Of a stretch of DNA of 64,000 nucleotides, positions 3,094 through 25,372 are shown in pieces; the first letter of the stretch is position 1, and every line of letters begins with the position of its first letter. Location: positions 496,001-560,000 of the forward strand of contig VRMN01000011.1 of NCBI GenBank assembly GCA_008690995.1. The letters run 5' to 3'. Made by a program: the position numbers and the translations under genes. The notes under the pieces are model-generated. The model did no database searches. It was not told the origin of the DNA and saw nothing but the letters and a program-made list of their open reading frames with translations. This DNA is from Porphyridium purpureum (lineage: Eukaryota).

Positions 3094-3310
3094 GCTTCCC
3101 GGCCATGCATTCGGACGTTCTTGGCGCAGATACGCACAGACAGATACTCACACCGCACCCCTCAGCTCCGGCTCCAGCACAACAAACATGCATATAACCA
3201 TCTCCCCCTTCTCTCTCCCTCTCTTCTTCCCTTCACCGAGCCCGAGAGGAAAAAAAAAGTCCCGCCAAAAACTTGCGAGTGGACCAGATGAGTGTACAGT
3301 TGGTTGTTCT

Positions 3311-4118
3311 CTTTAAATTCTCGCACGCTTGATGATGACAAGCGCACGAGCTCGGATGACACAACCCTTCTCAGATGACCGAACCCCAGCAACACGACGC
3401 ACACGGCACAGAGAACACAACCACACGACGCACACAACACAGACGACGAATACCCGGGGCGTGGAAAATCCAACGTATAGGGCCTCTACTATTGCCTTTC
3501 GCGTCGGCACAGACAGCACCGGTCTCGACAGGGGCAGGGTGTCGTAACGGACAAAGCCGCCGTCTGCCTTCAGTGCTCCAAGAGCACCGAAACCCCCCAG
3601 ACACGATGTGCTGCTGGCTCTGCTACACAGGCTCAGCAAAAGGCCCCACGTCTTCCGACGACCACGCCCAGGCACCCGACACCAAAGAACAACTCTTCCT
3701 TTATTCTCTGTGTCGTACTCCCTTGCCTCTTCTTCTTCCGCTCTAAAGAAAATCCGGGGAACCGCACAGGCCCGCGCCCATTATATACCCCGCCGTCCTT
3801 GCTGTCCTTGACGCGGAAGGGAGAAATTATTTCTCCCAAAGGCTGGGCTTTCCTCCGTTCGTTCCACAGAACGAAGCCACAGCCAGCCACGTCAGCAAGC
3901 GGCTCAATGGGTGCCGGCCGGCCGCCAAGCGGCTCCTGCTTCCCTCGGACACGCGACTCCGGCTCCTCGGGGCGAAAGACAACAATGCACAAAACCAGAG
4001 GTACAGGGTAAAAAACCACGCGGGCGAAAAAGCCCCTGTACCTCAAAGAATTCCGAGACGCCGTACCTCTAGGTGTACACCCAGGGCGTCTCTCGGACCG
4101 GAACACTTTTAATCCATG
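3311..4118 (-). repeat. 3' LTR of element A (808 bp)
   Basis: Matches 14735-15543 except for about 4 substitutions and 1 indel seen by eye. The pol stop codon (4109) lies inside it. Confidence 0.95.
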
Positions 4119-5997: not shown

Positions 5998-6001
5998 TTC
6001 T

Positions 6002-6293
6002 TGTCACAAACGGAGCTTCTTTTCTTTACTTCTTCTTCTCTCCTCCTCTACCTACTCTCTTCTTCCTAGCCTTTTTTCTTCGTTCGGCTGCCGCTCGCTC
6101 TGTTTTATACCCGCCTTCCGGCGCCGCAACGGCTTGCCCGGCGGGTTCAGCCCTCGGAATAACCCAATCCCGCGGCCCTCAACATAACTCAGCTGTACCA
6201 CACGGTACACCCACAGCTGTACTTTCAGTACACTTAGGGACTGTACCTCTGCGTACTCGCTGTACTGAGACCTGCATCAGGTCGCTCGCGACA
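6002..6293 (-). repeat. 3' LTR of element C
   Basis: TGTCAC...GCGACA, repeated at 11937-12228. Purine-rich GGGAAGTGTGGGA lies immediately upstream on the minus strand (PPT). Confidence 0.95.
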
Positions 6294-6819
6294 TCCCACA
6301 CTTCCCGCTTATCCACAGCGACCATTGCGATAGCGTGTTCTAAGCCCACGCGCCGCATGCATAGCAGCCGTTCCCGTGCCGCTCAACAGGTTCAAGCACA
6401 ATGAGCTGAGATCGAGCGGACGAAGTACAGTGTAAGCTGACAGGGTACAGTGCCAGCAACAGGGCCAAAAAAATAAGGTGGCCGGTGCCGCTCACAAGTG
6501 ACGCCCACTGACAAGACCCCGTACAGGCTGCCATCCCCCTCCCCCGCTAACCTTAAAGGAAAGGTGCGCTGTTACGGCTCTGCCCAATGTCACCCCGGGG
6601 AATTACCCTAGCCACGGATCCCCAGCATTTCACAGGGGCAGTTTTCTCTAATCAGGGAGTGCCTAAGATCCTCTTCAATTCTCGTTTGCCAAACTGCCGA
6701 AATTTAGAGTATATACACCCCCAAATATGGACTCAGGTACAGTATTACTGTACTTCACTGTACACAGACTGTACTTCATTTTGTTCTTTATCATTCGTTC
6801 TACCGTCTTGCTGCGGGCA

Positions 6820-6956
6820 CGGCTCCTTCTTTACCGTCCAGCCATGGACACAGCTCCTTCTTTAATGTCCAGCAACGGACACAGCTCCTTCTTTATAGTC
6901 CAGCAACGGACCCAGCTCCTTCTTTACCGTCCAGCCACGGACACTCCATCTTTATT
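6820..6956. repeat. About 4.5 tandem copies of a 31-bp unit (CAGCTCCTTCTTTAccGTCCAGCcACGGACA) in the 3' untranslated region of element C
   Basis: Units start at about 6820, 6851, 6882, 6913 and 6944, with no spacers. Confidence 0.85.
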
Positions 6957-7002
6957 CGAACATTTTTTTTTGAGAGCAGCGACGGCCGATAGCCACCCAG
7001 CG

Positions 7003-10000
7003 TCAAACACCTTCTGCCATGTCTCGGTACGCGGCTACCAGCATGGGCGGGAGCGTCTTCTCAGCCTCCCATGTGTCGCCTCGCTTCCCCATACCCCGCC
7101 ATCTCACCTTGTACTCGCGGCCTCCACCCGCAGCCCGATCTTCCACAATTGCCTCCACCACCCAACTTGCATCTCCTCCAGCGAACACGTTCGTGCCGGC
7201 CATGTCTACCACGTCCGGGTCTGCCTTGTGCAAGCGGTTCACATGCACGAGCTGGCCATGGAGCTCTGCGTCATCTCGGCCGTTTGCGCTGACCACGACT
7301 GCGTGAACCCCGTTCCGCTTTGTGATGCGGAAAGGTCCGAGCCACGGCTTTGTCAGCTTGCGACCCTGCCTCGTACTTGGGCACCACACGTATACGATGT
7401 CGCCCTCGGCAAACGTTTCCTTGTTCCGATGAATGTTTCTGTCATAGTACCTTGCAAACCTCTCGGCGTTCTCCGACATCTTATTCCCGGCGAGCCGATA
7501 GGCGCGCGCCAGCTGTGCGGAGATATCTTGCGGTTGCTGGCCCCCTTCAACCGCTCGCGGTCCGGCCATGCTTGCCCAGTCCTTGGCTGGCGACCCAAAC
7601 ATCATTTCGTACGGCGAGAAGCCGGTGGCTGCGTGGCGCGACGTGTTGTACGCGTAGGTTACAACGGACAGCCACCTATCCCAGTCGCGCGAGCTTGCAC
7701 TGACGTACGCCGACAGCATCTTGCACAGGGTCGCATTGAAGCGCTCCACCCTTCCGTTCGTCTGCGGGTGGTAGGCTGTCGTCATGAGCCTCCGGATTCC
7801 GAGTCTGGCGCAAAGCGACGTGATCACCTCACCGACAAAGTTTGAGCCCCGGTCGGACAAGATGGACTCCGGCGGGCCAAAGACAGTCAACCACGTCTGC
7901 AGGAAACTCCGCGCCACGGTCTCTGCCTTCTCGTCCGGGAGCGCCACGGCAACCGCCCATCGCGTCCAAGCATCCATCATGACGAGCACCTTGATATTTC
8001 CCGTTCGCGTCTCCGGACTGATGGTGAGGATGTCCATGCCTACAATTTCAAAGCGTCTGGACGCCGAGTACTGCACCATCGCCGCGTTCCGGCGGGGTGG
8101 TGGTGCCTTGCGCGCTATGCACTCGTGGCAGCACCGAACGAACTTCCGAACGTCTTCTGTCCACCCGGGCCACCACCACTGCGCGTCGGCTATCCTCGCC
8201 GCCGTCCTCGCCGTCCCCATGTGAGCTGACAGCGGGGCTCCGTGATAGACGTTGAGAACTGCCGACACAAGCGCGTCAGGGACCACCCGCCTGGGCATGT
8301 CTTTCAGCAACGCAAACACAATCCCGTCTTCGTCCACGATATACTCAGGGAAGGAGTACTTTGGCGCGGGTCCTGATAGGTTCTTGAGCTCCGCGCAGAT
8401 TTGCTCGTCCTCTGCGTACGCTGCTCTGAGCTCGTCGTCCGTGGGCACAGCGTATAGCGCCCCACTGTCTTGCGTGTCCCGTACCTCCCGGACCTCTTCT
8501 TCCGTGCCAGTGTCCAGAGGAGTACGCGATAGCGCATCGGCCACGATATTCGCTGCGCCTGGCTTGTGCTTCACGTCAAACTCGAAATCTTGCACGCGCA
8601 TGATCCACCTTGCCGTCCGACCCCGTGGCTCTTTCTGGCGAAGCAGCCACAGCAGCGCCGAGTGATCCGTCACGAGAATGAACTTCTTGCCGAACAGATA
8701 GTGCCTGAACTTTTCCATGGATAGTATGGCACCCAAGCACTCTTGCTCCGTGACGCTGTAGTTCAGCTCTGCGCCTCGGAATGCCCTTGAGTAAAAGGCC
8801 ACCGGGCGCCGCTGGTCCCCTTGAAGCAAGACCGCGCCAATGCCCACCTGGCTCGCGTCGACTTCAAGAACCATCTCGGCGGCCGGATTGAATGCAACCA
8901 GGACTGCGCTACCGTCGTCCATCGGATCACCTAGCGCATGGCGTAGGTCTATGAACGCGGCGCGCTGGTCGTCCCCGAATCTGCTCGCCCACTCTGCGCC
9001 ACCGGCCGTCTTCCGGTGGAAGCCACCTTTCTTGTCCGTCAATCCGAGCCCAGTCAGCGCTCGCCTCAGCGGGAGGGCACGCTCCTCGAAGTTCGGTATG
9101 AAGTTACGAAACCAGCCGACCAGTCCCAGGAACCGCTGCAGGTCCTTCGCTTCTTCTGGCTCTGGCCACTCCAGGATTGCCCGCGTCTTATCTACCCCAG
9201 GCCGCAAACCTTGCGGGCCAATGCGATGGCCCAGAAACTGTACTTCTGCCAGAGCAATCTTGCACTTGCGGGCCGACAGTGTAAGTCCCGACGCCGCGAA
9301 CCTTCGCAAGATCTGACGAAGTCCTTCCACATGTTCCTCGAAGGTCTCATGTCCCACTGTCAGATCGTCAATGTAGATCTGCGCGTGTGCATGGCGCATA
9401 GGGCCCAAAATCCGGTTGTTGAGTCGCTGAAACGTTGGCGGGCTATTGCAGCAGCCCTGCGGCAGACGCGTGTATTCAAATAGCCCCTCACGTGTGATCA
9501 TGGCAGTCAAATGCATGCTTTCTGGCGCAAGGGGCACCTGGAAAAACCCGTCCTTGAGATCGAGAGCGCTCTTCCATCGGCGCCTCGAAAGCCAGTCGAG
9601 CATCTCCCCAACGTCTGGGATTGGGTACCTGTCCTTGATTGTGATTGCATTGAGCGGGCGAAAGTCGGTAGTCATCCGATACGATCCATCTGGTTTCCGG
9701 ATCAGTACGTTGGCTGCTGCACACTCCGACGTGCTCGGCTGCAGCACTCCCTTAGCGACAAGGGCTTCGACCAGGCTGCGCTCAGCCTCGTTCTCGGCCT
9801 CTGAGCGCCTGCGCACTTTGGCCACCAGAGGGCGCTGGCCCGGTTCGACAGTGATGGTGTGTTCCACCAGGTCCGTTAATCCCATGGACGGCCTGAACAG
9901 CACCCACGCCTCAGCTAGGACGTCGCCGACTCGTTTGCGCTGCTCGGGCTCGAGATGCCCAAGCTCGATGGCCGCGGCGTTGCGCAGGGCTTCCTCTTTC

Positions 10001-10611
10001 TCGGCCGCGTGCTTCTGCTCCAGCTGGGCGATTCGACGATCAATCTCGCCCGGTTCTTCAAGATGACCGATGTGTTCTGGGCCCGGCAGACCACTCACTT
10101 GCTCGAACGGTAGAGAACCTCCACGCTTGAAGAACACAGCTTGACCTGGCAGCACGGCCGCGACTTCTCGAACCTGGAAGTCCCAGCCGATTAAGAGATC
10201 TGTCTTGAGGTGTTCCGCCACTCGGACCGTCTCGCACGGAAAAACGAAAGACCCGAGATGCAGATCCAGAAACCCAACGCTGACTCTGCCCAAGGAGGCG
10301 CCGTCCGGCCCTCGCGCTCCCCAACTTGACGGCTGCGTTTTCAAGCCGAGCCGGTCAGCCACGCTCGGGCTCACCCATGTTGAGTTTGCGCCCGTGTCCA
10401 GAACTGCCAGTGCGACCACTGCCTGGCCACATGCGGTGAGCTTCACCCGCAACGTCGGACTGTTGTCCGCACGCACGGCCAGCTCCGCGTCGCCGTCTTG
10501 TTCCTTGGCGTACGCCGCGCCTTGCAACTCTGCCTCACCTGAGGCATCGCCCGGCTCCCACCATTCCATGCAGGGGGCAGCTACTGCTTGCTGCCCCACT
10601 GCCCGTTTTTT
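7003..10611 (-). CDS. pol: Element C pol: aspartic protease, RT, RNase H, integrase (HHCC, DDE, GPF) and C-terminal chromodomain; probably expressed by -1 frameshift
   Basis: Motifs LDTGA; DFRPLN, LDLKDGFFQ, PQGCCNSP, YIDD; DAS..GIGAVL, TDH, ADALSR; SDRG..F, PQTNGRVERFN; WLGPF; WVVEAIVEDR...EYKVRWRG....DTWE. Confidence 0.95.
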   Translation of the reverse strand, partial: KKRAVGQQAVAAPCMEWWEPGDASGEAELQGAAYAKEQDGDAELAVRADNSPTLRVKLTACGQAVVALAVLDTGANSTWVSPSVADRLGLKTQPSSWGARGPDGASLGRVSVGFLDLHLGSFVFPCETVRVAEHLKTDLLIGWDFQVREVAAVLPGQAVFFKRGGSLPFEQVSGLPGPEHIGHLEEPGEIDRRIAQLEQKHAAEKEEALRNAAAIELGHLEPEQRKRVGDVLAEAWVLFRPSMGLTDLVEHTITVEPGQRPLVAKVRRRSEAENEAERSLVEALVAKGVLQPSTSECAAANVLIRKPDGSYRMTTDFRPLNAITIKDRYPIPDVGEMLDWLSRRRWKSALDLKDGFFQVPLAPESMHLTAMITREGLFEYTRLPQGCCNSPPTFQRLNNRILGPMRHAHAQIYIDDLTVGHETFEEHVEGLRQILRRFAASGLTLSARKCKIALAEVQFLGHRIGPQGLRPGVDKTRAILEWPEPEEAKDLQRFLGLVGWFRNFIPNFEERALPLRRALTGLGLTDKKGGFHRKTAGGAEWASRFGDDQRAAFIDLRHALGDPMDDGSAVLVAFNPAAEMVLEVDASQVGIGAVLLQGDQRRPVAFYSRAFRGAELNYSVTEQECLGAILSMEKFRHYLFGKKFILVTDHSALLWLLRQKEPRGRTARWIMRVQDFEFDVKHKPGAANIVADALSRTPLDTGTEEEVREVRDTQDSGALYAVPTDDELRAAYAEDEQICAELKNLSGPAPKYSFPEYIVDEDGIVFALLKDMPRRVVPDALVSAVLNVYHGAPLSAHMGTARTAARIADAQWWWPGWTEDVRKFVRCCHECIARKAPPPRRNAAMVQYSASRRFEIVGMDILTISPETRTGNIKVLVMMDAWTRWAVAVALPDEKAETVARSFLQTWLTVFGPPESILSDRGSNFVGEVITSLCARLGIRRLMTTAYHPQTNGRVERFNATLCKMLSAYVSASSRDWDRWLSVVTYAYNTSRHAATGFSPYEMMFGSPAKDWASMAGPRAVEGGQQPQDISAQLARAYRLAGNKMSENAERFARYYDRNIHRNKETFAEGDIVYVWCPSTRQGRKLTKPWLGPFRITKRNGVHAVVVSANGRDDAELHGQLVHVNRLHKADPDVVDMAGTNVFAGGDASWVVEAIVEDRAAGGGREYKVRWRGMGKRGDTWEAEKTLPPMLVAAYRDMAEGV
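10574..10611 (-). promoter_or_regulatory. -1 frameshift signal of element C: A_AAA_AAC, 7-nt spacer, 8-bp stem GGGGCAGC/GCTGCCCC
   Basis: The heptamer is in the gag frame at 10605-10611, and pol is in the -1 frame and open across it. Confidence 0.8.
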
Positions 10612-11879
10612 GGTCCGTGGCTCAAGCCACCGTCCGGATACGGCGCACGTGGTGCTCCACCTTGGCCCGCGGGGCGATGCACTCCCCCATCGGCCCGTGG
10701 CCATCCATTGCGGCAATCCCTCTTCAAGTGTCCAAGTTCGCCGCACTGCCAGCACTGCGGCTGTCCGGGCAAAGCAGTCGGAAGGGCTTGGCGCTTGGCC
10801 TGTGGCCCGAAGCTCTCGACCTGGTACACATCCTCTGCGTACAGGCCGTAGTCACGACCGCGCTTCTGGATCGTCGTGCCCGGGACCTCGCCTATGCGGC
10901 CCACTCTCTCGCGGCCAAGCGGGCGTTGCTGGCCAAACGGAGGAAGCGGGCGACTCGGTAGACCCTTCAAACCATCTTCACCGACGTGGTCCACCAGAGC
11001 TGAGCGCAGCTTGGTGAACGAGACGCTCACGCCGATCATGCGGACCGTGTTCTTCAAGAACGCGGAGTCCATGGCTTCGATCAACACGTCCTTCTTGTCC
11101 TCGTCGTCCATCTTGAGCCCGTCAGCCTTGGTCTCCAGGTCGTTCAGAAAGACACTCAAGCTGGCTTTCCCCGGTTGGAACTTCATGCGGCGGAGCTCGG
11201 CTTTCAAAGCCTGGCGGTGCTCGACATTGAAAAACATGGACTCCAGTGCCTTCCACACACGGTTCGCTGCGCCGGGCCCTGCCGCATCGACATCTTTGAT
11301 CACGGCTTGGTACCTTGACACCGCGGGCCCACCAAAGCAAGCGCTGATGTGCTCCGCGACATTGTCCCTTGCGAGGCCAAGTGTGTCCGCGTGCGACTCC
11401 CAGCAGGTCCGCGACGCGAAGAAATGAGCGTCACCTGGGGCCTTGATAAGAACTTGAGCACTGCGGACCGCCTCGCGAAAGGTTGCTGCGAGCTTCAACT
11501 GCTCCTCCCAGAACGACCGATCCATGGTACGGCCCGAGGTCTGCGCCGAGTTGCGGCTGTGCGCCTGGGCCTCCAGTTCAGCAACGCGAGCGCGAAGGGC
11601 CATCACTTCGGCTCCGCCCGGTGCAGCTAGGTCTCCAACCGGGACAACGGACTCTGCGTCGGCTGCGGCTTCCAGGTGACCTGGCGTCCCCTGCTCATTG
11701 TCGACAGCTTCACCCTGGTGCTCCACGACAGGCCCGTCTTCTGGCGCTGGGCCCCCGGCACGAGCGGCCCCTGCTTCGATGATCGCGGATCCGCTGCGTG
11801 GCTCCCCAAGTCCTGCCACAACTGCTGCCTCGCGAGGCCCACCTGCCTCTCCAACTCCTGCCCCACGCCCACGCGCCAT
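10581..11879 (-). CDS. gag: Element C Gag with CCHC zinc knuckle
   Basis: CWQCGELGHLKRDC. First ATG at 11879, just downstream of the 5' LTR. Confidence 0.88.
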   Translation of the reverse strand: MARGRGAGVGEAGGPREAAVVAGLGEPRSGSAIIEAGAARAGGPAPEDGPVVEHQGEAVDNEQGTPGHLEAAADAESVVPVGDLAAPGGAEVMALRARVAELEAQAHSRNSAQTSGRTMDRSFWEEQLKLAATFREAVRSAQVLIKAPGDAHFFASRTCWESHADTLGLARDNVAEHISACFGGPAVSRYQAVIKDVDAAGPGAANRVWKALESMFFNVEHRQALKAELRRMKFQPGKASLSVFLNDLETKADGLKMDDEDKKDVLIEAMDSAFLKNTVRMIGVSVSFTKLRSALVDHVGEDGLKGLPSRPLPPFGQQRPLGRERVGRIGEVPGTTIQKRGRDYGLYAEDVYQVESFGPQAKRQALPTALPGQPQCWQCGELGHLKRDCRNGWPRADGGVHRPAGQGGAPRAPYPDGGLSHGPKNGQWGSKQ

Positions 11880-11936
11880 CCTATCCCACTCCCAACCCCA
11901 CACTTCCTCGCTCCCACACGACCAATTTGCAAATTA

Positions 11937-12228
11937 TGTCACAAACGGAGCTTCTTTTCTTTACTTCTTCTTCTCTCCTCCTCTACCTACTCTCTTCTTC
12001 CTAGCCTTTTTTCTTCGTTCGGCTGCCGCTCGCTCTGTTTTATACCCGCCTTCCGGCGCCGCAACGGCTTGCCCGGCGGGTTCAGCCCTCGGAATAACCC
12101 AATCCCGCGGCCCTCAACATAACTCAGCTGTACCACACGGTACACCCACAGCTGTACTTTCAGTACACTTAGGGACTGTACCTCTGCGTACTCGCTGTAC
12201 TGAGACCTGCATCAGGTCGCTCGCGACA
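11937..12228 (-). repeat. 5' LTR of element C, with TATA-like GGTATAAAAC at 12037-12046
   Basis: Direct repeat of 6002-6293. Confidence 0.95.
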
Positions 12229-13765
12229 TTCTTCCAATAGGTAGGGGAACGTCCTCCTCCAAGTTCCCGGACACACGCGCCTCGGCCGTATTCGTAGGCA
12301 ACACCATAGTCTCTTGACTATCCGGTTCTTCCTGCCTAGAGTGAAAGTCGATTTCACCCTCACGTGCCGAGACCTCCTCGTCATCCTTTGTTTCCAAAAT
12401 CCGCATTGGAAACACTTCAGGGAACGCCTTGAAGTCCTGAGTGCGAGTCAGCCTCGGTGCCGCACTCGTCCACTCCTCCTGAGGAAGGACCCAGATTGCC
12501 AGCGGATGCTCCGCAACTCCAACAAGGACTCCAATCTTTCCTCTGGGTGCATACTTGTTCTCAGGTTGATCATTCTTGAACACCACCTTGCATCCAAATG
12601 GTACTGCTACCTTCCCCCGCTTCCATCTCTCACCGTACCTCATTTCATACGGAGACTTCCCAGACCTCTTGTCTGGGTGCAGCCGATTGAACATGAAGAC
12701 GAAATGCTGAGCGGCATGCAAAAACCACCGCTTTCCCAGCCCAGACTGCAGGAGATTTGCTCGTACCCCCTGATTCAAAGTATGATGGAAACGTTCCTGT
12801 TCAGCGTGGCTATTTGGTCTATGTGGGACGCCAATCTCATGCTTCACGAGATTCTCCCGTACCAAATTGCTCACATTTCCCCTGAACTCGTTTCCATCAT
12901 CTGTCCTCAGTACCTTTGGCCATCCTCGCCCGGCTTGCACGCTTGTCCAAGCTTCAGCAACCGCCGTATGCGTTTTGGCTCTCAATCCTGCCAGTGTGGC
13001 CCACCTCGTCGCTCTATCGATGTGCGTCAGTATGTACTTTGCTCCATCGGTGGCTTCCACGTTACGTCCGGGCTCCACCAGGTCGATCCCAACTTCGTCA
13101 TTGAACGACAAAGTGGACAAGTCCTTCTCCAGCCTTCTTGCTGGTCGGCTCTTGATCTTGGCCACAACACACGTCTCACAATCATCCCGCATCGGCATGT
13201 GAGTCAACGCATGTTCCATCCCGGCCATCTTTCCTTCGACCTCTTCACTGGCACTCTCCTCTTCTCCATCGCACGCTTGATTTCCGCTTGACTCGGAAAG
13301 AGCGTCCACGACATTCACCATCGCACAATCTTCCACATTTTTAAGTCCCAAGTCCATCGAACCCCTCTGCCAATCAATCCTCGGGTTCACGCGACTCAGC
13401 CAGTCCCACCCGAGAATTGCATCCATTTGCAGAGGCCCGACATAAAACTTGACCGGCCCTTTCCAGAACCCAAGATCAACATGCTGCAACACCGGGCCAT
13501 GCACTAAGACACTTTGCCCACCCGCAAGCTTGACCATTCCGTTCTCGCGCCCTTCAAATCTGCCGACAAAGCGAGATCCAAGAAAATTGTGCGATGCTCC
13601 GCTGTCCACCAGAAATTGGACAGACTCGCCATCTAAAGTTCCACGCTTGTAGAGCAACCTCGACGCCGCATCAGCGCGCCAGACCTCACCTACAAAGCCC
13701 ATCCCGGGAGGTTCCGTTCCCCTCGAGTGCACCTCCCAACTTCTCCCTCGAGGTTTTAGTTTTCC
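12229..13765 (-). CDS. pol: Element A pol, 5' part: Gypsy-type aspartic protease and Copia-type integrase
   Basis: FLVDSGASHNF...DAILGWDWL..VNPRIDW; HALTH..DCETC; GIDLV, RTDDGNEF, QERFH; PFGCKV...KYAPRGKIGVLVG. Removing C and one TTCT restores the frame: ...VPLPIGR|RGKRKPSVAWSREED. Confidence 0.93.
13704..13765 (-). promoter_or_regulatory. -1 frameshift signal of element A: G_GAA_AAC, 5-nt spacer, H-type pseudoknot
   Basis: Heptamer 13759-13765 directly before the gag TAA. Stem 1 is CCTCGAG/CTCGAGG and stem 2 is GGGAGGT/ACCTCCC. Confidence 0.8.
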
Positions 13766-14712
13766 GGGCCTCCCGCCAAGTGCCCATTCCGCTTTGGGCA
13801 ATTGGGTTTGATGTGGCCGCGCTGCCCGCAATGGTAGCATCTGACTTTGCCCACGTCCGCATGCTTGCGCTTCTCCGGCTGGCGTTTCTCCACGACGCCC
13901 AAATCCATTGGCGCCGTCCCGGCATACGACGAGCTGTTCCGGTAGTTTGGACTAGAGGCGCCATGAAAAGCCTCCCTCATGTCTCCTCCAAACCTACCAA
14001 CCTGCTCCGCAGCCAACGCCGCCCTCAGCGACTCTTCCAGCGTCTTCGTGTCCTGACGCGCCACCTCAAGGCGAAGCTTCTCCTTCAGGCCGAGAGTGAA
14101 GATGGTGTTGAGCTCGGCATCCGTCACACTATCCACTGACAGGGCCACCATCCTCAGGCGCTGCTCAAACTCAGCAACAGTCATCTTGCCCTGCTTCAGC
14201 TGATACAAGTTCGTTCGAGCAGTCAGGTATGCCTGCGGCGGCTCAAATGCCGTCCGCACGAAGTTCGCGAACGCATTCCAACCGGACTCGGCCAGTGCCA
14301 TCCTCTGTTCCTCAGGGCGAGCTGCCCACAACAGCGCGGCATCCTTCTCAAAGAAGCGCGACGCTACGATCACCTTCTGAGACTCCAGCGCTCCAGCTGG
14401 CATGCACATGTCCAAGTCTTGCTTCATCCTCGACAACCACTCGTTCACAACGAGTTTGTCGCGCTGTCCGTCGTATTTCCTCAAGCTGCGTCCAATCAGC
14501 GATGCAACGGTCCTTTCCGTTTCGCCGGGACCAGCTGACACAGATGCCTGATGCATCACATTCTGCAGCATCTCCTGCAAGAGGCGATTTCCCTCCTGCA
14601 GCTGCACAATCATCATTTCTTGTCCTCCGATACGAGCATGAAGCTGGTTGAAAGCTTCAATCCACGACGCGCCGCCCTGCAGGCCCTGCACGTCCATTCC
14701 CTCAGAATCCAT
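13756..14712 (-). CDS. gag: Element A Gag (Retrotrans_gag/Ty3-type capsid, PMDLG motif, CCHC knuckle), 318 aa
   Basis: LRKYDG, LYQLKQGKMTVAEF, FTLGLK, APMDLG, CYHCGQRGHIKPNC. Confidence 0.92.
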   Translation of the reverse strand: MDSEGMDVQGLQGGASWIEAFNQLHARIGGQEMMIVQLQEGNRLLQEMLQNVMHQASVSAGPGETERTVASLIGRSLRKYDGQRDKLVVNEWLSRMKQDLDMCMPAGALESQKVIVASRFFEKDAALLWAARPEEQRMALAESGWNAFANFVRTAFEPPQAYLTARTNLYQLKQGKMTVAEFEQRLRMVALSVDSVTDAELNTIFTLGLKEKLRLEVARQDTKTLEESLRAALAAEQVGRFGGDMREAFHGASSPNYRNSSSYAGTAPMDLGVVEKRQPEKRKHADVGKVRCYHCGQRGHIKPNCPKRNGHLAGGPEN

Positions 14713-14722
14713 CTTCGCCGAT

Positions 14723-14734
14723 GCGATGATACCA
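14723..14734 (-). promoter_or_regulatory. Primer-binding site of A (TGGTATCATCGC), probably for initiator tRNA-Met
   Basis: Abuts the 5' LTR. The first 8 nt match the TGGTATCA iMet-type PBS, and the same 12-mer occurs in B. Confidence 0.75.
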
Positions 14735-15543
14735 CTTTAAATTCTCGCACGCTTGATGATGACAAGCGCACGAGCCCGGATGACACAACCCTTCTCAGAT
14801 GACCGAACCCCAGCAACACGACGCACACGGCACAGAGAACACAACCACACGACGCACACAACACAGACGACGAATACCCGGGGCGTGGAAAATCCAACGT
14901 ATAGGGCCTCTACTATTGCCTTTCGCGTCGGCACAGACAGCACCGGTCTCGACAGGGGCAGGGTGTCGTAACGGACAAAGCCGCCGTCTGCCTTCAGTGC
15001 TCCAAGAGCACCGAAACCCCCCAGACACGATGTGCTGCTGGCTCTGCTACACAGGCTCAGCAAAAGGCCCCACGCCTTCCGACGACCACGCCCAGGCACC
15101 CGACACCAAAGAACAACTCTTCCTTTATTCTCTGTGTCGTACTCCCTTGCCTCTACTTCTTCCGCTCTAAAGAAAATCCGGGGAACCGCACAGGCCCGCG
15201 CCCATTATATACCCCGCCGTCCTTGCTGTCCTTGACGCGGAAGGGAGAAATTATTTCTCCCAAAAGGCTGGGCTTTCCTCCGTTCGTTCCACGGAACGAA
15301 GCCACAGCCAGCCACGTCAGCAAGCGGCTCAATGGGTGCCGGCCGGCCGCCAAGCGGCTCCTGCTTCCCTCGGACACGCGACTCCGGCTCCTCGGGGCGA
15401 AAGACAACAATGCACAAAACCAGAGGTACAGGGTAAAAAACCACGCGGGCGAAAAAGCCCCTGTACCTCAAAGAATTCCGAGACGCCGTACCTCTAGGTG
15501 TACACCCAGGGCGTCTCTCGGACCGGAACACTTTTAATCCATG
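14735..15543 (-). repeat. 5' LTR of element A (809 bp), with TATA-like GGTATATAAT at 15204-15213
   Basis: Direct repeat of 3311-4118. Confidence 0.95.
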
Positions 15544-15549
15544 GTTCTC

Positions 15550-16346
15550 CTTGGAATTTCTCCCTTTCTGCTTTGTAACCGAATCAACAAAACCGGATCG
15601 CTTCACCGATAACAGGAACTGGAAACCGCCACACCCCGGAAACTGACAAACCGACGACGAACCGACACACCGAAACGAACGGAAGGACAAGCAGGACAAT
15701 CAGAGAAAAGTGGCTAGAAAGGAAGAGAGGACAGAAAATTCAACTTATAGGGGACTACGAGAGGGAGTGGACCGGTCTTGACAAGTGAAGGGTGATGGAA
15801 GGTACGTTTAAACCCCAGCTGCCTTTTTAAAAACACTCCAGACCGATATCCGCTCGCACAACACGCTAGCGTGCCTCTCCCGCAAATCCAACCCAAGTCT
15901 TCCAACGACTGCCTCAATCCAACTAACCAATTCTCTTTTTATTCTATTTGCCCTTACCTCTTCTTCTACCTTGACCTGGAAATTCCTGGGAACCAGCTTG
16001 CCCCTTCGTCCTTTTATACCCTTCGTCCTTGCTCTTTCCAGCAAGGACGGGAGAACAAATTTCTCCAACAGGACGAATTTCCACCACAGGTTTTGATTCG
16101 TTCCACAACTCGCAACCACAGCCGGCCACGTATCCGGAAAATGGCCGGGAGGGCGCGTCAAGAACGAATCCAGAAGCTTCGGCCGGCCTTTGACCTTTGC
16201 ACAAGGCCACACAAAACGACAATGACAAACATTTCGCAGGTCCGAGATCATCACGCTTCTCGAACAATCTTTCATCATAGAACTTTCTAGGGTTTTGTAC
16301 TCAAAACCCTACGGCGTCTCTCGGGGCGGAACCCTAAAATTCCACG
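15550..16346 (-). repeat. 3' LTR of element B
   Basis: Direct repeat of 20514-21310. The pol stop (16334) lies inside it. Confidence 0.95.
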
Positions 16347-19300
16347 CTCCTCCTTCCGGTCTGAGGGACGCGTAACTTCTCCCAGCACTTAATGTGGCCC
16401 TCCGGAAATAAGGCCTTGGTCATTAAGTCCGCCACATTTTCGTCCGTCTTCACAAATGCCAGTTTCACAAGTTTCTGCTTTTCGCACACCTGATGCAACC
16501 AGGCCAAATCTGTTGCTCGGGTTATCGCCATATGATGCAACTTTGGCGAGTACCCCATCTCTATTGCTCGCATCACAGCTTGATTGTCACACATCAAAAT
16601 CACCGAGAACTCTCCGTCACGTATACTTCGCAAGAAAGACAATGCAGGAAACAACGAGAGTTGCACAGTTTCCTCTAGGGCGGCCAGCTCCGACTCTGAA
16701 GTCGACGAGCTCACGAAACGCTGCTTTCTTGAAGACCAATCCACTAGGTACTTGTAATCTCCAGCAACTAAGTACGTTGCTCTTCCAGAAGTCGACACAC
16801 GACTCTCTGGACAACCAGCAAAGTCAGCATCCGTGTATCCAAGAATGTTCACCCCTCTGATGCCTTCCTTGAGATTCCCCAACACGTGATACTCCAATGC
16901 TTCCCGAGGTGTTTTCAAATACTGCACGACTCGTACGAGCAGCCTTTCTGCTGCCACATTCCACTTGTCAACGTACCGGGCAATCATACCGACTGCATAC
17001 GCAATATCAGGTCGAACCGTTCTGGCGAGCCACATCAGCCTCCCGACGTGTTCTCTTACTTTCAAAGTCTTCCAGATGACTTGATAATTCAGAACTTCCT
17101 CGCCATCTAGCTTCTCAGATGGTGACTTCACGGCACGCAATACGCGTCTAATATCCTGCTCAAATTCCCGAATGACCACATCTTGATACTCTTGATTCGC
17201 CAAACTCACGCTCCCATTTTTGAGGGAAATGCTCGTCCCCAGGAATCTCAAGGATCCTCCTTCCGTCAATAGTTCTGGTGCTTTTTCTATGAGAAACTCT
17301 TGTTTCAATTCTTCGATGATTCCTGGGCGTTCCTCCTCTCGACAGGCTAATAGACCATCATCCACGTACAGAGCCAACAACGCAACTGACGAACTTGCAG
17401 CATTTCTCCGGACGTACACATTCTTTTCACCATGCACGAGCTTCCACTGGAACTTTTGCAATCTCCTCCGAGCATCTTGTGAGAAATCCGAGCCGCTCCT
17501 GGGCAAGCCATACAGCGCCTTTCTCAGCCTGACTACTGTGTCTTTTGAATCACAAATTTCACGCGGTAAGTATGCAAACGTAGGTGGCCCAGACAGGTCC
17601 GCATGGAGGTATGCCGAGCTGATGTCGAAACTAACAATCTGAAGGCCCAGAATTGCAGCCACAGCTATTATCATTCGGATAGCTGACAAACCAGCAGGCG
17701 TCTCATAATCAAAAATGTCATTCGTCGCAGCTCCATCGGACCCCCATATCCTGTTTCCCCCGGCCACCAAGCGGCACTTCACCTTGCGAAATTCTTCCGG
17801 CATCTCAGCAAATTTCAGACCGAAAATGAAATGTGTGCGTACGAAACGAGCACCAGGTTGCCTCCGGGCCTCCTCCAGCGTCAAGGGATTCTCATCCCAT
17901 ACCCCAAATCTCAGCATGGATTTGACTTCTTTTTCCATCGCGGCTCGTCCTTGCTCAGACGCTAACGCCGCTCCAGTTTTCAGCAAAGTCGTTAAGTTCA
18001 ACTGTGGGATCGTCACTGGACCACCCGTGCCTGCTGCCCGTTCCTCGTCAACCACTCTCACTTTCAATGCCTCGATCTCTTTCTCAAGCTCCGCTTCTCG
18101 AGCTCTGAGAGCATCGATACGACGATCCAAGTCCTGCACCGCTTCAACCGCGGATGGTTCGTCCACTTCTGGCAACTCTTCCTGCTGGCTCAGGCTCACC
18201 ATCTCTCGTTCAATTCCCTTTAAAGGGAACTCATGGGTAAATGCCTTAAAATCCTGAGTGCGAATTACTTTTGGGGTCTCACTCGTCCAGTCATCCCGAG
18301 GAAGCACCAAAATTGCCATCGGATGCTCTCCAACGCCGACGAGAATGCCAACTTTTCCTCGCGGTGCATACTTATTGTCAGGCTGATCATCTTTGTAGAC
18401 CACCTTGCACCCGAATGGCAAACTAAGATTTCTCGGCGACCATTTTTCACCACGTCGTAATTCAAACGGCGTCTTTCCAGACTTCCTGCCCACGTGAAGT
18501 CTATTCGTCATGAACGCAAAATGCTGCGCGGCGTGCATGAACCAACGCTTCCCGAGTCCGGCCTGCACAAGATTCGCACGGATTCCCTGATTCAGCGTGT
18601 GGTGAAACCGCTCCTGTTCAGCATGACTGTTTGGCCTGTACGGAATCCCCACCTCGTGCTTTATGAGGTGTTCACGCACCAGTCTCCCCACATCTCCCTT
18701 GAACTCATTCCCATCATCCGTTCGCAAAACCTTCGGCCATCCTCTCCCGGCTTGCACACTTTTCCAAGCGTCCGCAACCGCCGTGTGGGTTTTCGCACGT
18801 AGCCCCGCCAATGTCACCCATCCTGTGGCTCTGTCGATATGCGTCAAAATAAACTTTGAACCATCTACCGACTTCACATTTCGCCCAGGCTCCACCAAGT
18901 CAATTCCGACTTCATCATTGAATGACAATGCACTGACATCTTTCTCCAGCCTTCGGGCCGGGCGTCGCTTTATCTTCGCCACGACACACGTCTCACAGTC
19001 TCTTTGCATAGGCATGTGAGTCAACTCGTGTTCCGAAGCAGCCACGCTCTGATTTTTCCCGTCAAGCTCGGGAACCACTTCTTCAACATTTTCCAACGTG
19101 CATATTTCCTTCCCCTCGGGCCTCGTTTCCATCAGTCCCTTCTGCCAATCAATCTTAGGATTCACCATCTTGAGCCATTTCCACCCTAAGATGGCATCCA
19201 TACGAATGGGACCGATATAAAACTCGACGTTCCCTATCCAGAAACCGAGGTCCACCGCAAGCACAATGGGGCCGTGCACCTTCATTCTCTGTCCTCCCGC

Positions 19301-19546
19301 AAGCTCGACCATGCATTCATCGCAACTGGACTTTACGCTTGCGTCCAAGAATCGGGACCCCAGGAAATTATGCGACGCTCCACTGTCAATCAAGAAGTCG
19401 ATTTTTGAACCACTCACTTTCCCATGTTTGTAGAAGAGCCTTGACCTCGCACCCTCGTGCGCAACACCTTCCACAACACCCATTACAGGAGGCTCCATTC
19501 CCCTCGAGATCTCCTCCTGTCTTGGCTCTCGAGGTCTTAGTTTTCC
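16334..19546 (-). CDS. pol: Element B pol: PR, IN, leucine zipper, RT, RNase H (Copia order); -1 frame relative to gag
   Basis: FLIDSGASHNF; HELTH..DCETC; DDE core; KCRLVAGG, DISSAYLHADL, LRKALYGL, YVDD; GYTDADFAG, CDNQAV, ADLMTKAL. The frame is open from the slippery site at 19546. Confidence 0.95.
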   Translation of the reverse strand, partial: GKLRPREPRQEEISRGMEPPVMGVVEGVAHEGARSRLFYKHGKVSGSKIDFLIDSGASHNFLGSRFLDASVKSSCDECMVELAGGQRMKVHGPIVLAVDLGFWIGNVEFYIGPIRMDAILGWKWLKMVNPKIDWQKGLMETRPEGKEICTLENVEEVVPELDGKNQSVAASEHELTHMPMQRDCETCVVAKIKRRPARRLEKDVSALSFNDEVGIDLVEPGRNVKSVDGSKFILTHIDRATGWVTLAGLRAKTHTAVADAWKSVQAGRGWPKVLRTDDGNEFKGDVGRLVREHLIKHEVGIPYRPNSHAEQERFHHTLNQGIRANLVQAGLGKRWFMHAAQHFAFMTNRLHVGRKSGKTPFELRRGEKWSPRNLSLPFGCKVVYKDDQPDNKYAPRGKVGILVGVGEHPMAILVLPRDDWTSETPKVIRTQDFKAFTHEFPLKGIEREMVSLSQQEELPEVDEPSAVEAVQDLDRRIDALRAREAELEKEIEALKVRVVDEERAAGTGGPVTIPQLNLTTLLKTGAALASEQGRAAMEKEVKSMLRFGVWDENPLTLEEARRQPGARFVRTHFIFGLKFAEMPEEFRKVKCRLVAGGNRIWGSDGAATNDIFDYETPAGLSAIRMIIAVAAILGLQIVSFDISSAYLHADLSGPPTFAYLPREICDSKDTVVRLRKALYGLPRSGSDFSQDARRRLQKFQWKLVHGEKNVYVRRNAASSSVALLALYVDDGLLACREEERPGIIEELKQEFLIEKAPELLTEGGSLRFLGTSISLKNGSVSLANQEYQDVVIREFEQDIRRVLRAVKSPSEKLDGEEVLNYQVIWKTLKVREHVGRLMWLARTVRPDIAYAVGMIARYVDKWNVAAERLLVRVVQYLKTPREALEYHVLGNLKEGIRGVNILGYTDADFAGCPESRVSTSGRATYLVAGDYKYLVDWSSRKQRFVSSSTSESELAALEETVQLSLFPALSFLRSIRDGEFSVILMCDNQAVMRAIEMGYSPKLHHMAITRATDLAWLHQVCEKQKLVKLAFVKTDENVADLMTKALFPEGHIKCWEKLRVPQTGRRSVEF
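19485..19546 (-). promoter_or_regulatory. -1 frameshift signal of element B: G_GAA_AAC, 5-nt spacer, H-type pseudoknot
   Basis: Heptamer 19540-19546. Stem 1 is CCTCGAGA/TCTCGAGG and stem 2 is ACAGGAGG/CCTCCTGT. Confidence 0.85.
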
Positions 19547-20484
19547 GGCTCTGGCGGACCACCTGCCAAGCGCTCCTTCAATTTAGGGCATTTGGGCTTA
19601 ATGTGTCCACGTTCTCCACAATGGTAACACTTCACTTTGGTCTTGCCAGACTTCCGCTTGTCCATGGCTCCCAAATCCATTGGTGCGCTACCAGAATGCG
19701 ACGAGAACGCCCTGCTATGAGTCGATGACGAGTTCTTGATCACTTGACTCATATCTCCTCCGAACTTTGCAACCTGCTCAGCTGCCAACGCAACTTTCAG
19801 TGATTCTTCCAAGGTCCTTGTGTCCTGACGGGCCACCTCAATACGCAGTTTCTCCTTCAAGCCCAGCGTGAAGATGGTGTTCAGTTCTGCATCTGTCACA
19901 TCTTCAACTGATAACGCTGTCATCCTGAGATTCTGCTCAAATTCTGCGACCGTCATTTTCCCTTGCTTCAACTGATACAGATTGGTGCGCGCTGTCAAAT
20001 GCGCCTGCGGCGGCTCAAACGCTGTGCGCACGAAGTTTGCGAACGCATCCCATCCGGCCTCTGCAAGGCCCTTTCTCTGCTCCTCCGGACGAGCTGCCCA
20101 AAGCAGCGCTGCGTCCCTCTCGAAAAAGCGACTTGCAACAATCACTTTCTGCGAGTCCAAAGCATCTGCGGGCATGCAGATATCCAGGTCGCTCTTCATT
20201 CGCATCAGCCATTCATTGACAACGAGCTTGTCACGCTGACCATCAAACTTTCTCAAACTGCGCCCAATTAACGCGGCCATGGCACGATCGTTGTCACCAG
20301 ACCCAGACGCCACGGTCTGCTGGCGCAACAAAACATGCATCATTTCATGGAGGTTACGATTCGCTTCCTGCACTTGTGCCATCATCATCTCCTGTCCCGC
20401 AATGCGCGCATGCAGCTGATTAGCTGCCTCAATCCATGCCGCATTCTCCTGCGGGACATTCATTTCCATTTCATGGCTTTCCAT
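19537..20484 (-). CDS. gag: Element B Gag (Ty3/Gypsy-type, PMDLG, CCHC)
   Basis: Close homolog of A Gag; CYHCGERGHIKPKC. First ATG at 20484. Confidence 0.92.
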   Translation of the reverse strand: MESHEMEMNVPQENAAWIEAANQLHARIAGQEMMMAQVQEANRNLHEMMHVLLRQQTVASGSGDNDRAMAALIGRSLRKFDGQRDKLVVNEWLMRMKSDLDICMPADALDSQKVIVASRFFERDAALLWAARPEEQRKGLAEAGWDAFANFVRTAFEPPQAHLTARTNLYQLKQGKMTVAEFEQNLRMTALSVEDVTDAELNTIFTLGLKEKLRIEVARQDTRTLEESLKVALAAEQVAKFGGDMSQVIKNSSSTHSRAFSSHSGSAPMDLGAMDKRKSGKTKVKCYHCGERGHIKPKCPKLKERLAGGPPEPEN

Positions 20485-20513
20485 TTTCTCCAAACAACCG
20501 GGCGATGATACCA

Positions 20514-21310
20514 CTTGGAATTTCTCCCTTTCTGCTTTGTAACCGAATCAACAAAACCGGATCGCTTCACCGATAACAGGAACTGGAAACCGCCACACCC
20601 CGGAAACTGACAAACCGACGACGAACCGACACACCGAAACGAACGGAAGGACAAGCAGGACAATCAGAGAAAAGTGGCTAGAAAGGAAGAGAGGACAGAA
20701 AATTCAACTTATAGGGGACTACGAGAGGGAGTGGACCGGTCTTGACAAGTGAAGGGTGATGGAAGGTACGTTTAAACCCCAGCTGCCTTTTTAAAAACAC
20801 TCCAGACCGATATCCGCTCGCACAACACGCTAGCGTGCCTCTCCCGCAAATCCAACCCAAGTCTTCCAACGACTGCCTCAATCCAACTAACCAATTCTCT
20901 TTTTATTCTATTTGCCCTTACCTCTTCTTCTACCTTGACCTGGAAATTCCTGGGAACCAGCTTGCCCCTTCGTCCTTTTATACCCTTCGTCCTTGCTCTT
21001 TCCAGCAAGGACGGGAGAACAAATTTCTCCAACAGGACGAATTTCCACCACAGGTTTTGATTCGTTCCACAACTCGCAACCACAGCCGGCCACGTATCCG
21101 GAAAATGGCCGGGAGGGCGCGTCAAGAACGAATCCAGAAGCTTCGGCCGGCCTTTGACCTTTGCACAAGGCCACACAAAACGACAATGACAAACATTTCG
21201 CAGGTCCGAGATCATCACGCTTCTCGAACAATCTTTCATCATAGAACTTTCTAGGGTTTTGTACTCAAAACCCTACGGCGTCTCTCGGGGCGGAACCCTA
21301 AAATTCCACG
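20514..21310 (-). repeat. 5' LTR of element B, with TATA-like GGTATAAAAG at 20975-20984
   Basis: Direct repeat of 15550-16346, followed directly by PBS TGGTATCATCGC. Confidence 0.95.
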
Positions 21311-21979
21311 TTCTCATATCGTCGTACAACTGTACCTACACCGAGGGAGCTGTTTCGCCCGTGCCGTGAAGCACGAGGGGTCAGAAGACTCAGTCGAGTG
21401 CAGGCGAACGTGTCGCGGCGAGTCGCGCGCCTGCGGCCACAACAACTGTGCCACCCATACACACACGCGCGATCGGCCACTTGTCCTCAGAATCGCGACC
21501 CTAGCGCGGGCTTCATGCGCGCTATGAAGGATGGCAAGCCCACAGCCGCACATCCAGCGTCTCCGTAACCGCGAAACCTGGGTGAGTTCGCCGTTCTGTT
21601 CGCTAAACCGATTCGTTATCGGTTCAACTCGCCGGATGCGAATTTCATAAGCGACGCATAGAGAAAAGTACAGTGAACTCTGTTGGGTAACTTTGATCGA
21701 TTCGGTTGAACGTAGCCCGCGGGAGATTTTCGTGGAAGCTGATGCACCTGTGAATGCAGTGGGTGGGGCAGGATAAAGTCAGTGAAGGAGAGGTGATGAG
21801 TACGACACAGACTTGTACGAGTTCGCAGATAACTGCAACAAGGGCCGAAGGAAGCGCATGAGGAGGCTGGTGAGGACGCTGCAGTGAAACTCGTTCGAAG
21901 GTAGAGGTTGGAGAGGGCGACGTGGGCTGAAACGACTTGAATAGAGGTTAAGATGGCTGGATCACGACGGGGTGATGCG

Positions 21980-22594
21980 ATGTTGTTTGTCGCGGCAGCG
22001 CCTGCGGCGGACAAGGTGCAGGTCACAGGGCAGTGGAATGAGGGTGTCTGCGTGGCCAGAGATGTGCGTATGGGCATGGAGACTTCCCAGAGTTCGACGA
22101 CGCGGCGGGCATTCATGCAGCGTGCCGCCATGGTTGCGCTAGGTGGGCTGGGCGTGGTTGGTGCCTCAGGGGGCGCCTCGAGCGCAAACGCGGCCGCCAC
22201 TCCTGTTGAGCCCTCAATGGCGGAAAGGCAACGTGAGCTCAGTGAGCACTATCGCGGCGCGATGGACTCCTTTGAAAGGCTAGATGATCTGCGCACTATG
22301 ATTGATTTGGCGCTGGTCGACTCGCTGCGTGCGTCTATGCGCGGCCCCGAATACGGGAATGTTCGTATTGATTGTTATTTCCTTGCTACCAAGTCACCGG
22401 GTGTGCAGAAGGACAAGGCAATGCAATCGTTCCGCGTTCTCATGACAAACTTTGAGAACCTCGACCAGCAAGCCATCAAGCTGGGCCGAGGCGAGACAAG
22501 CGTCGACGCGGCCGTCATGAAGAACGAGCTTGATTCTCTCGAGAAGAACTTTAGCAGCTTTCTGGCACTCATTCCCAAGCCGCAAAGTTTGTAA
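21980..22594 (+). CDS. Plastid-targeted thylakoid-lumen (Tat) protein, possibly PsbQ-like
   Basis: MLFV-type transit peptide, twin-arginine TRRAFM, hydrophobic stretch and A-N-A cleavage site, then a helical mature domain. An upstream ATG at 21953 is also possible. Confidence 0.55.
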   Translation: MLFVAAAPAADKVQVTGQWNEGVCVARDVRMGMETSQSSTTRRAFMQRAAMVALGGLGVVGASGGASSANAAATPVEPSMAERQRELSEHYRGAMDSFERLDDLRTMIDLALVDSLRASMRGPEYGNVRIDCYFLATKSPGVQKDKAMQSFRVLMTNFENLDQQAIKLGRGETSVDAAVMKNELDSLEKNFSSFLALIPKPQSL

Positions 22595-25341: not shown

Positions 25342-25372
25342 TGTGTGTGTGTCTCTGTGTGTGTGTGTGTGT
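25342..25372. repeat. (TG)n microsatellite
   Basis: Visible TG run. Similar AG/CT/CA runs occur at about 26140, 50835, 51055 and 52190. Confidence 0.7.

What the first reader, a model, noticed from the sequence alone, without database searches (positions are those of the whole stretch)
15536..15560. Two different elements inserted at one host site, with overlapping target-site duplications
Seen: only GTTCTC (15544-15549) separates A from B, and GTTCTC also occurs at both outer junctions (3306-3311, 21310-21315). With LTR ends set by LTR-LTR comparison, A duplicated GTTCT and B duplicated TTCTC, so the cuts are 1 nt apart and in the same orientation. One shared 6-bp TSD is the alternative reading. 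A and B have different LTRs, so this is not a shared-LTR tandem. A's LTRs differ at about 5 positions and B's at none seen, suggesting A came first. Inference: strong site-specific targeting, here about 215 bp upstream of the ePHD gene start.
Basis: partly seen in the sequence, partly recalled or inferred. Interest (0 to 1): 0.85.

Follow-up and report, generated by a model that had tools for sequence, protein, structure and literature searches.

The report
Two retrotransposons stacked at one site
In a single-celled red alga, two different jumping genes sit head to tail with their insertion cuts one base apart in the gap between two host genes, which likely means these elements aim repeatedly at the same narrow spots instead of landing at random.

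Summary
Elements A (3311-15543) and B (15550-21310) are complete, related Copia-order LTR retrotransposons with different LTRs. Their 5-bp target duplications (GTTCT, TTCTC) overlap by 4 bases. Other copies fix the LTR ends and reject the 6-bp reading. The proteins match Porphyridium purpureum.

Co-insertion seems to recur. One of 4 runs shows an A-A head-to-tail joint with a 5-letter spacer. Four A/B pairs lie within 3 accession numbers among 37 loci, against 0.41 expected, which is an indirect proxy. Other flanks share no motif, so the cue is likely positional, not a target sequence. 'A first' is weak: 3 of the 5 LTR differences are family-wide variants.

Best reading: two separate integrase insertions at a narrow promoter hot spot, a known double-insertion mechanism. 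Main rival: newcomers land beside a resident LTR end. The lineage is unusual: its LTRs end CA/CG...AG, and A's integrase tail carries a TRF1-like Myb domain that B lacks. Not shown: the empty allele, or reads bridging the A-B junction.

The parts
1..3093 (-). Host gene with ePHD (zf-HC5HC2H) domain, runs off the window; ATG 213 bp from the target
   Evidence: (PF13771 E=3.5e-10)
3294..3302 (+). Left arm of a 9-bp perfect inverted repeat in host DNA bracketing the inferred pre-insertion site
3306..3310 (+). Target-site duplication of A, outer copy (GTTCT)
3311..4118 (-). A 3' LTR (808 bp), ends CATGG...TAAAG on the element strand
4119..4129 (-). A polypurine tract (same 11-mer as in B)
4109..6025 (-). 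A pol, C-terminal part: Myb-like domain, then Copia-type RT (RVT_2) and an RNase H-like end (the latter inferred from position)
5831..5974 (-). TRF1-like Myb domain between integrase and RT of A (absent from B); limits approximate
6002..12228 (-). Nested Gypsy chromodomain element C: TG...CA LTRs 6002-6293 and 11937-12228, identical; 4-bp duplication TTCT at 5998-6001 and 12229-12232; interrupts A pol
12212..13951 (-). A pol, N-terminal part (protease, integrase)
13756..14712 (-). A gag (Retrotrans_gag, Ty3_capsid, CCHC)
14723..14734 (-). A primer-binding site, abutting the LTR (likely initiator-Met type; tRNA not checked)
14735..15543 (-). A 5' LTR (809 bp)
15544..15549 (+). Host spacer GTTCTC = A's inner duplication (15544-15548) overlapping B's (15545-15549)
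15550..16346 (-). B 3' LTR (797 bp), ends CGTGG...CCAAG on the element strand
16334..19582 (-). B pol ORF (PR-IN-RT), uninterrupted, overlapping gag in the -1 frame; coiled-coil-like stretch where A has Myb
19537..20484 (-). B gag (315 aa)
20502..20513 (-). B primer-binding site (same 12-mer as in A)
20514..21310 (-). B 5' LTR (797 bp), identical to the 3' LTR; telobox-like motifs in its first 70 bp
21311..21315 (+). Target-site duplication of B, outer copy (TTCTC)
21327..21335 (+). Right arm of the 9-bp host inverted repeat
21953..22594 (+). Host PsbQ-like ORF, divergent from the ePHD gene; first ATG 638 bp from the target
   Evidence: (PF05757 E=7e-4, below curated cut-off)

Best explanation
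A and B are two complete, related Copia-order LTR retrotransposons lying head to tail with overlapping 5-bp target duplications, most likely from two separate integrase-driven insertions that were probably steered to the same narrow window of a divergent promoter gap by a host landmark (a bound protein or chromatin edge), not by the target letters. Shown: anatomy, 5-bp duplications, cuts 1 nt apart, position between divergent ePHD and PsbQ-like genes, one further two-LTR tandem joint with a 5-letter spacer, varied flanks at other copies. Inferred: that each duplication was made by integrase; that a landmark on one flank survived the first insertion and positioned the second, as Sap1 positions Tf1 to the nucleotide; that such hot spots are few (roughly a few hundred, my estimate from 3-5 pairs among about 38 loci). 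Unknown: the order, and the identity of the landmark.
For: Each element has its own exact 5-bp duplication, PBS, PPT and LTR pair. Chance coincidence is 1e-4 to 2e-3 for about 40 elements. A second same-site tandem: in 1 of 4 runs laid (X3), A's right end joins A's left end across five letters at depth 128, near the depth of two divergent single A-like contigs in that run (168, 267); the spacer is neither PBS nor PPT sequence. In the annotated P. purpureum proteins, 4 pairs among 37 A/B loci lie within 3 accession numbers (simulated mean 0.41; P>=4 0.0008; P>=3 0.007 if one mirror pair counts once). 0 of 13 loci of more distant families do so (nearest 19). The site lies between divergent genes with no tRNA gene in the window. 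Precedent from passages read: P-element dimers carry the target duplication at the junction and lie a median 169 bp from transcription starts (10.1101/158386); Tf1 clusters at -9 and +19 from Sap1 motifs (PMC5741268).
Against: No genome was available, so distance to gene starts was measured for this one site only. Accession adjacency is a proxy: it does not show abutting ends, TE-rich gene-poor regions inflate it, two of the four pairs mirror each other with identical A proteins, and the control is weak (P=0.06-0.11). No B-to-A or further A-to-B joint was listed in the 4 runs, although two accession pairs would predict one if they abut. A and B have different integrase tails (Myb versus none), which a shared tether must explain. 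The data fit LTR-end-directed insertion about as well. The empty allele and a read bridging the junction were not seen.
Confidence: 0.5

Rival explanations
1. The resident element itself is the landmark: an incoming A or B integrates right beside an existing A/B LTR end, most simply just upstream of its U3, because U3-bound factors or the LTR edge attract the intasome.
For: Both resolved tandems are head to tail with 0 or 1 nt offset. A/B neighbour each other while 0 of 13 loci of related families neighbour them. B lies directly upstream of A's U3 here. A's U3 carries a GTACAG...CTGTAC inverted pair like the arms around the host site, and B's U3 carries telobox-like motifs while A encodes a TRF1-like Myb. 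No host landmark has been identified.
Against: Only two junctions are resolved. The motif matches were noticed after the fact and binding is untested. Most copies seen have non-LTR flanks. None of my 10 paper searches gave a precedent for LTR-edge targeting by an LTR integrase.
Confidence: 0.25
2. Weak, broad preference for open intergenic DNA plus luck, or two intasomes acting together in one burst, with selection keeping insertions at an already disrupted site.
For: Flank 5-mers vary. Both families are young and multi-copy. The LTR clock cannot separate A and B in time. With 100 elements and 1 Mb of target the chance reaches 0.015, and this window was picked for the oddity.
Against: Selection for harmless sites predicts nesting anywhere in a 5.8-kb element (as C did), not abutting within 1 nt. 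A second exact tandem joint exists.
Confidence: 0.13
3. Assembly artefact: an A-only and a B-only allele merged in tandem.
For: No bridging contig was among the pieces shown; the allele state in raw data was not obtained.
Against: The junction holds exactly one copy of the six host letters, as two real staggered cuts require; an assembler joining on 4-6 bases is unlikely (inference). Even so the two alleles would be independent insertions 1 nt apart, so the hot spot would stand.
Confidence: 0.06
4. A and B inserted on different homologues into the intact palindrome-bracketed site and were joined later by microhomology-mediated template switching within the shared TTCT.
For: The 9-bp inverted repeat around the inferred empty site is rare (15 of 6,553 host positions at +/-30 bp) and is split by the first insertion, so it could guide both only on separate alleles.
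Against: Needs an exchange within 4-6 bases. The A-A joint needs no such step. The repeat was found after the fact.
Confidence: 0.06

Closest known systems
Tandem TE dimers by double insertion (P element, jockey, R1 in Drosophila; McGurk and Barbash, 10.1101/158386, passages read)
   Same: Head-to-tail complete elements with the target duplication preserved at the junction; near transcription starts.
   Different: There the dimers are of one family, and LTR-element tandems are attributed to recombination with a shared LTR. Here two different LTR families keep four LTRs and the cuts are offset by 1 nt.
Shared-LTR tandems of LTR retrotransposons (plants, PMC11899658; Tf1/Tf2 by Rad52 strand annealing, PMC11042837; passages read)
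   Same: Adjacent LTR elements in one orientation, including Tf1-Tf2 hybrids.
   Different: Those share one central LTR and have one outer duplication; here the junction has two unlike LTRs and host letters between them.
Tf1 of fission yeast positioned by Sap1 (PMC5741268, passages read)
   Same: Promoter-region insertion at nucleotide-precise offsets without a strict target sequence: the model for how this may work.
   Different: Tf1 belongs to the Gypsy family (same paper); no host factor or offset has been identified here.
Ty1/copia superfamily, including non-TGCA Copia elements of plants (10.1101/137141) and diatom CoDi (PMC2806351); passages read
   Same: PR-IN-RT order, RVT_2, 5-bp duplication, atypical ends, location near genes.
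   Different: Ends are CA...AG and CG...AG, whereas the plant survey found the first T invariable. Gag and protease match Ty3-type profiles, pol overlaps gag in -1, and the integrase tail holds a Myb domain in A and in relatives. Not placed on a tree with CoDi or GalEa.
Drosophila errantiviruses gypsy, ZAM, Idefix (PMC5408687, passages read)
   Same: Non-TG/CA ends together with non-random integration.
   Different: They target short palindromic sequences (TATA, CGCG, ATAT); the duplications here share no motif.

Membership tests
Ty1/copia LTR retrotransposon | Integrase upstream of RT; Copia-type RT | tested here: met
   (rve before RVT_2 in A; RVT_2 E=1e-16 and 2e-18)
Ty1/copia LTR retrotransposon | LTR pair, PBS, PPT, 5-bp target duplication | tested here: met
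Ty1/copia LTR retrotransposon | TG...CA termini (usual, with known exceptions) | tested here: not met
   A: CA-TG...AA-AG; B: CG-TG...CA-AG
Ty1/copia LTR retrotransposon | Copia-type gag and protease profiles | tested here: not met
   Matches are Retrotrans_gag, Ty3_capsid, gag-asp_proteas, Asp_protease_2
Named Copia clade (CoDi, GalEa, Ty1 etc.) | RT/RNase H tree position | not tested
   No reference set was laid; relatives outside A/B reach at most about 41% identity over matched stretches
Double-insertion tandem | Two complete elements, target letters preserved at the junction and repeated outside | tested here: met
Double-insertion tandem | Empty and single-insert alleles exist; reads bridge the junction | tested here: inconclusive
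   No bridging piece among those shown; allele state at the host flank was not obtained
Shared-LTR (recombination) tandem | One central LTR | tested here: not met
   Two unlike LTRs (57%) with a 6-nt spacer
Sequence-specific elements (errantivirus-like) | Common target motif across copies | tested here: not met
   Seven other junction 5-mers share no motif; small sample
Pol III-gene-targeted elements (Ty1/Ty3-like) | tRNA gene next to the site | tested here: not met
   ARAGORN found 0 genes in the window; other Pol III genes were not searched
Tethered promoter targeting (Tf1/Sap1-like) | Fixed offset to a host-factor motif across many insertions; integrase-factor link | not testable with these tools
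   No whole genome held

The most novel reading that the evidence does not exclude
A red-algal Copia lineage whose integrase joins unprocessed LTR ends (two extra bases kept outside the ancestral TG/CA) and whose swappable DNA-binding tail, a TRF1-like Myb in A and several sister families, places new copies immediately upstream of promoter motifs, including those in the U3 of resident A/B elements, so that different families pile up head to tail with base-pair precision.
Probability: 0.2. Interest if true: 0.85.

Novelty: new variant of a known kind. Interest (0 to 1): 0.58.

Why it matters
Double insertion at one site is known for DNA transposons and LINEs, while LTR-element tandems are usually put down to LTR recombination. 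A two-family, four-LTR tandem with offset duplications, plus a second such joint, points to nucleotide-level targeting in a little-studied algal lineage. If the Myb tail is a targeting module, it would be a sequence-reading counterpart of the chromovirus chromodomain. It could be tested directly, because A has the domain and B does not. Practically, these young elements lack TG...CA ends, so default LTR finders would likely miss them, and they may alter promoters between laboratory strains.

Tried and rejected
6-bp shared duplication: rejected. Shared-LTR tandem and concatemer insertion: rejected because host letters lie between unlike LTRs. 2-LTR circle as the source of the X3 joint: disfavoured because the spacer is not PBS/PPT sequence and the depth is near single-copy. 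LTR clock for order: not reliable. Whole-genome map: no genome held. Degenerate LTR-end scan of metagenome contigs: 0 matches. Earlier findings: none for this genome or sequence. State of the host site in other samples: not obtained. In run X4, 20 records were laid, none of its 6 loose ends continues into this site's host flanks, and B's LTR occurs as a solo LTR with unmatched flanks; contigs show presence, not absence, so this is not counted. GTAC enrichment at promoters: not evident from the list of 255 positions. Myb fold: low-confidence single-sequence model (pLDDT 57, helices 16-28, 32-47, 51-60), no Foldseek match at E<=0.001; the wider fold search and the Atlas search never ran. The shared AGAA core in the duplications of A, B and nested C is treated as coincidence, since the A-A spacer lacks it.

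Full report
Observation. LTR-LTR comparison in the window gives element A at 3311-15543 (LTRs 808 and 809 bp, 5 differences) and element B at 15550-21310 (LTRs 797 bp, 0 differences). Both are on the minus strand, each with a PBS and the same 11-nt PPT abutting its inner LTR ends. A is flanked by GTTCT at 3306-3310 and 15544-15548, and B by TTCTC at 15545-15549 and 21311-21315. Six host letters separate them. The LTR families align at 57%.

Five or six bases. C3311 and G21310 also occur at the inner LTR copies, where no host DNA is involved. Contigs of 4 public runs laid on 14300-17200 agree: three records in X1 match from 14735, three in X6 from 14734, and a solo B LTR in X4 covers exactly 15550-16346. 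One run (X3) has a joint from A's right end (15543) through four letters to 14734, which puts five letters between two A LTR ends. The duplications are 5 bp and the two cuts are 1 nt apart.

Identity. B pol is 99-100% identical to proteins named Porphyridium purpureum; A-family proteins are about 70% identical to it. Pfam shows Copia order (protease, integrase, RVT_2) but Ty3-type gag and protease profiles. Pol overlaps gag in the -1 frame. A Gypsy chromodomain element C with TG...CA ends and a 4-bp duplication is nested in A's pol. The site lies between two divergent host genes, an ePHD gene (ATG 213 bp away) and a PsbQ-like ORF (638 bp; Pfam below cut-off). ARAGORN finds no tRNA gene in the window.

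More than chance? For about 40 elements, the chance of any two within 1 nt is 1e-4 to 2e-3, and 0.015 under generous assumptions. Two outside lines suggest recurrence. First, the X3 joint (1 of 4 runs; depth 128 against 168 and 267 for two divergent single contigs) is what an A-A double insertion at exactly one site would leave. Second, gene-model accession numbers appear to follow position, since gag/pol pairs and split models are consecutive. Among 37 loci (16 A, 21 B), 4 pairs lie within 3 numbers: 8499337/38 (A, A; 13 residue differences), 8491270/72, 8491285/87 and 8497459/62. The simulated mean is 0.41, P>=4 is 0.0008 and P>=3 is 0.007. Before counting I merged split models and gag/pol pairs and dropped P0098 as possibly this window's own A. 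Three rows had no accession shown, and only 15 of 17 A and 15 of 16 B cluster members were listed. Two pairs mirror each other with identical A proteins and may be one event. The intervening accessions were not seen. As a control, 0 of 13 loci of more distant families of the same alga lie within 3 numbers of an A/B locus (nearest 19), which is weak (P=0.06-0.11). Against this line: one search listed no B-to-A or other A-to-B joint, and adjacency in a gene list does not show abutting ends.

No fixed target sequence. Single-record junctions give TCCGG, GACTA and GGTAC beside A, ATTCT, GGTGT and CTTTT beside B, and ACAAA at the A-A joint. This assumes the printed loose letters abut the stated place; 24 loose ends were shown and 211 were not. 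They share no motif and none equals this site's letters. The precision is therefore likely positional. A perfect 9-bp inverted repeat (3294-3302, 21327-21335) brackets the inferred empty site; 15 of 6,553 host positions (+/-30 bp) or 34 of 6,547 (+/-40 bp) have such a repeat. I found it after the fact, and the first insertion would separate its arms.

Order. Either order gives the same sequence. Three of A's five LTR differences are multi-copy variants of the family: 15155 in 4 of 4 runs, 15262 and 15293 in 3 of 4 (15293 at depth 5,041 of 11,432 in X1). They likely reflect exchange between copies, not age. The other two were not among the rows shown (26 hidden). Two-sided p is 0.06 for 5 vs 0 and 0.5 for 2 vs 0. 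'A first' is possible but not shown.

Features bearing on mechanism. (a) Ends read CA-TG...AA-AG in A and CG-TG...CA-AG in B. B looks like TG...CA with two extra bases kept at each end, which suggests joining of unprocessed blunt ends (inference). Ty1 also needs no end processing but ends in TG...CA (PMC8487063, passages). A plant survey found the first T invariable among non-TGCA ends (10.1101/137141, passages). Three of 26 diatom families lack TG/CA (PMC2806351, passages). (b) Between integrase and RT, A carries a Myb domain: 27 bits against a 24.4 cut-off when scanned alone, best solved relative TRF1 at E=6e-4. B has a coiled-coil-like stretch there (coiled coil by eye). Pfam sees Myb at the same place in 3 of 30 relatives scanned, and a profile of four segments also finds the P0114 family, P0127 and P0155 among 267 stored proteins. 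The module is therefore a lineage trait that B likely lost. The structure model was low-confidence and gave no fold match. Two paper searches for Myb or SANT domains in integrase tails (listings, plus passages of PMC10984392) showed no such case.

Mechanism. I commit to two separate integrase insertions steered to one narrow promoter window by a host landmark that survives on one flank (0.5). It would work like Tf1 at fixed offsets from Sap1 (PMC5741268, passages) and leave the footprint described for P-element dimers near transcription starts (10.1101/158386, passages). The main rival (0.25) is that the resident LTR's U3 end is the landmark. It fits both head-to-tail junctions, the inverted GTACAG/CTGTAC pair in A's U3 and the telobox-like motifs in B's U3, but no binding is shown. 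Broad preference plus luck or a joint burst (0.13), assembly merge (0.06) and recombination of two alleles (0.06) follow. The different tails of A and B argue that the shared cue is not read by the Myb domain alone.

Comparison and novelty. Tandems of LTR elements in plants and fission yeast share a central LTR and are ascribed to recombination or strand annealing (PMC11899658; PMC11042837; passages); this one does not. Errantiviruses combine odd ends with palindromic target sequences (PMC5408687, passages); no such motif is seen here. Searches for Porphyridium LTR elements and for two different elements with overlapping target sites listed no description of this case; the library lacks most subscription journals and I opened no supplements. 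Passages of PMC7337890 and PMC8147415 added nothing specific. Verdict: a real feature and a new variant of a known kind. Open points: the empty allele, reads across the junction, and a genome-wide flank map.

Noticed in passing
window 5831-5974 (-); P0114, P0117, P0127, P0128, P0135, P0155: TRF1-like Myb domain between integrase and RT in A and in several divergent relatives; a candidate DNA-reading targeting module in a Copia lineage.
   Followed up: partly
window 3311, 4118, 14735, 15543, 15550, 16346, 20514, 21310: LTR ends read NN-TG...(C/A)A-AG, as if the two bases normally trimmed by integrase are kept in the integrated copy.
   Followed up: partly
window 13756-14712 and 19537-20484; 19480-19600: Copia-order pol is paired with Ty3-type gag and protease profiles and a -1 gag-pol overlap with GGAAAAC before the gag stop; P0114 and P0116 share the mixed architecture.
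   Followed up: partly
window 6002-12228: Gypsy chromodomain element with identical 292-bp LTRs and a 4-bp duplication, inserted a few codons upstream of A's Myb domain; its LTR holds seven GTAC motifs, and a 31-bp tandem repeat lies at 6805-6959.
   Followed up: partly
window 16288-16338 and 21252-21302: B's U3 holds telobox-like motifs (AAACCCTA, TAGGGTTT, CCCTAAA), two of them as an inverted pair.
   Followed up: no
P0003, P0075: Gene models with two and three repeats of the B integrase-RT segment, suggesting nested or tandem partial B copies (or mis-assembly) elsewhere in the genome.
   Followed up: no
run X4, record 22: A solo B LTR whose two flanks do not match, possibly from recombination between different B copies.
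   Followed up: no
run X6, loose end behind 15544: Another A flank with three GTAC motifs in 31 letters, like the three around this site.
   Followed up: no
window 23985-33480: Ordinary host genes: aldose 1-epimerase, an ARM-repeat protein, coatomer alpha.
   Followed up: no
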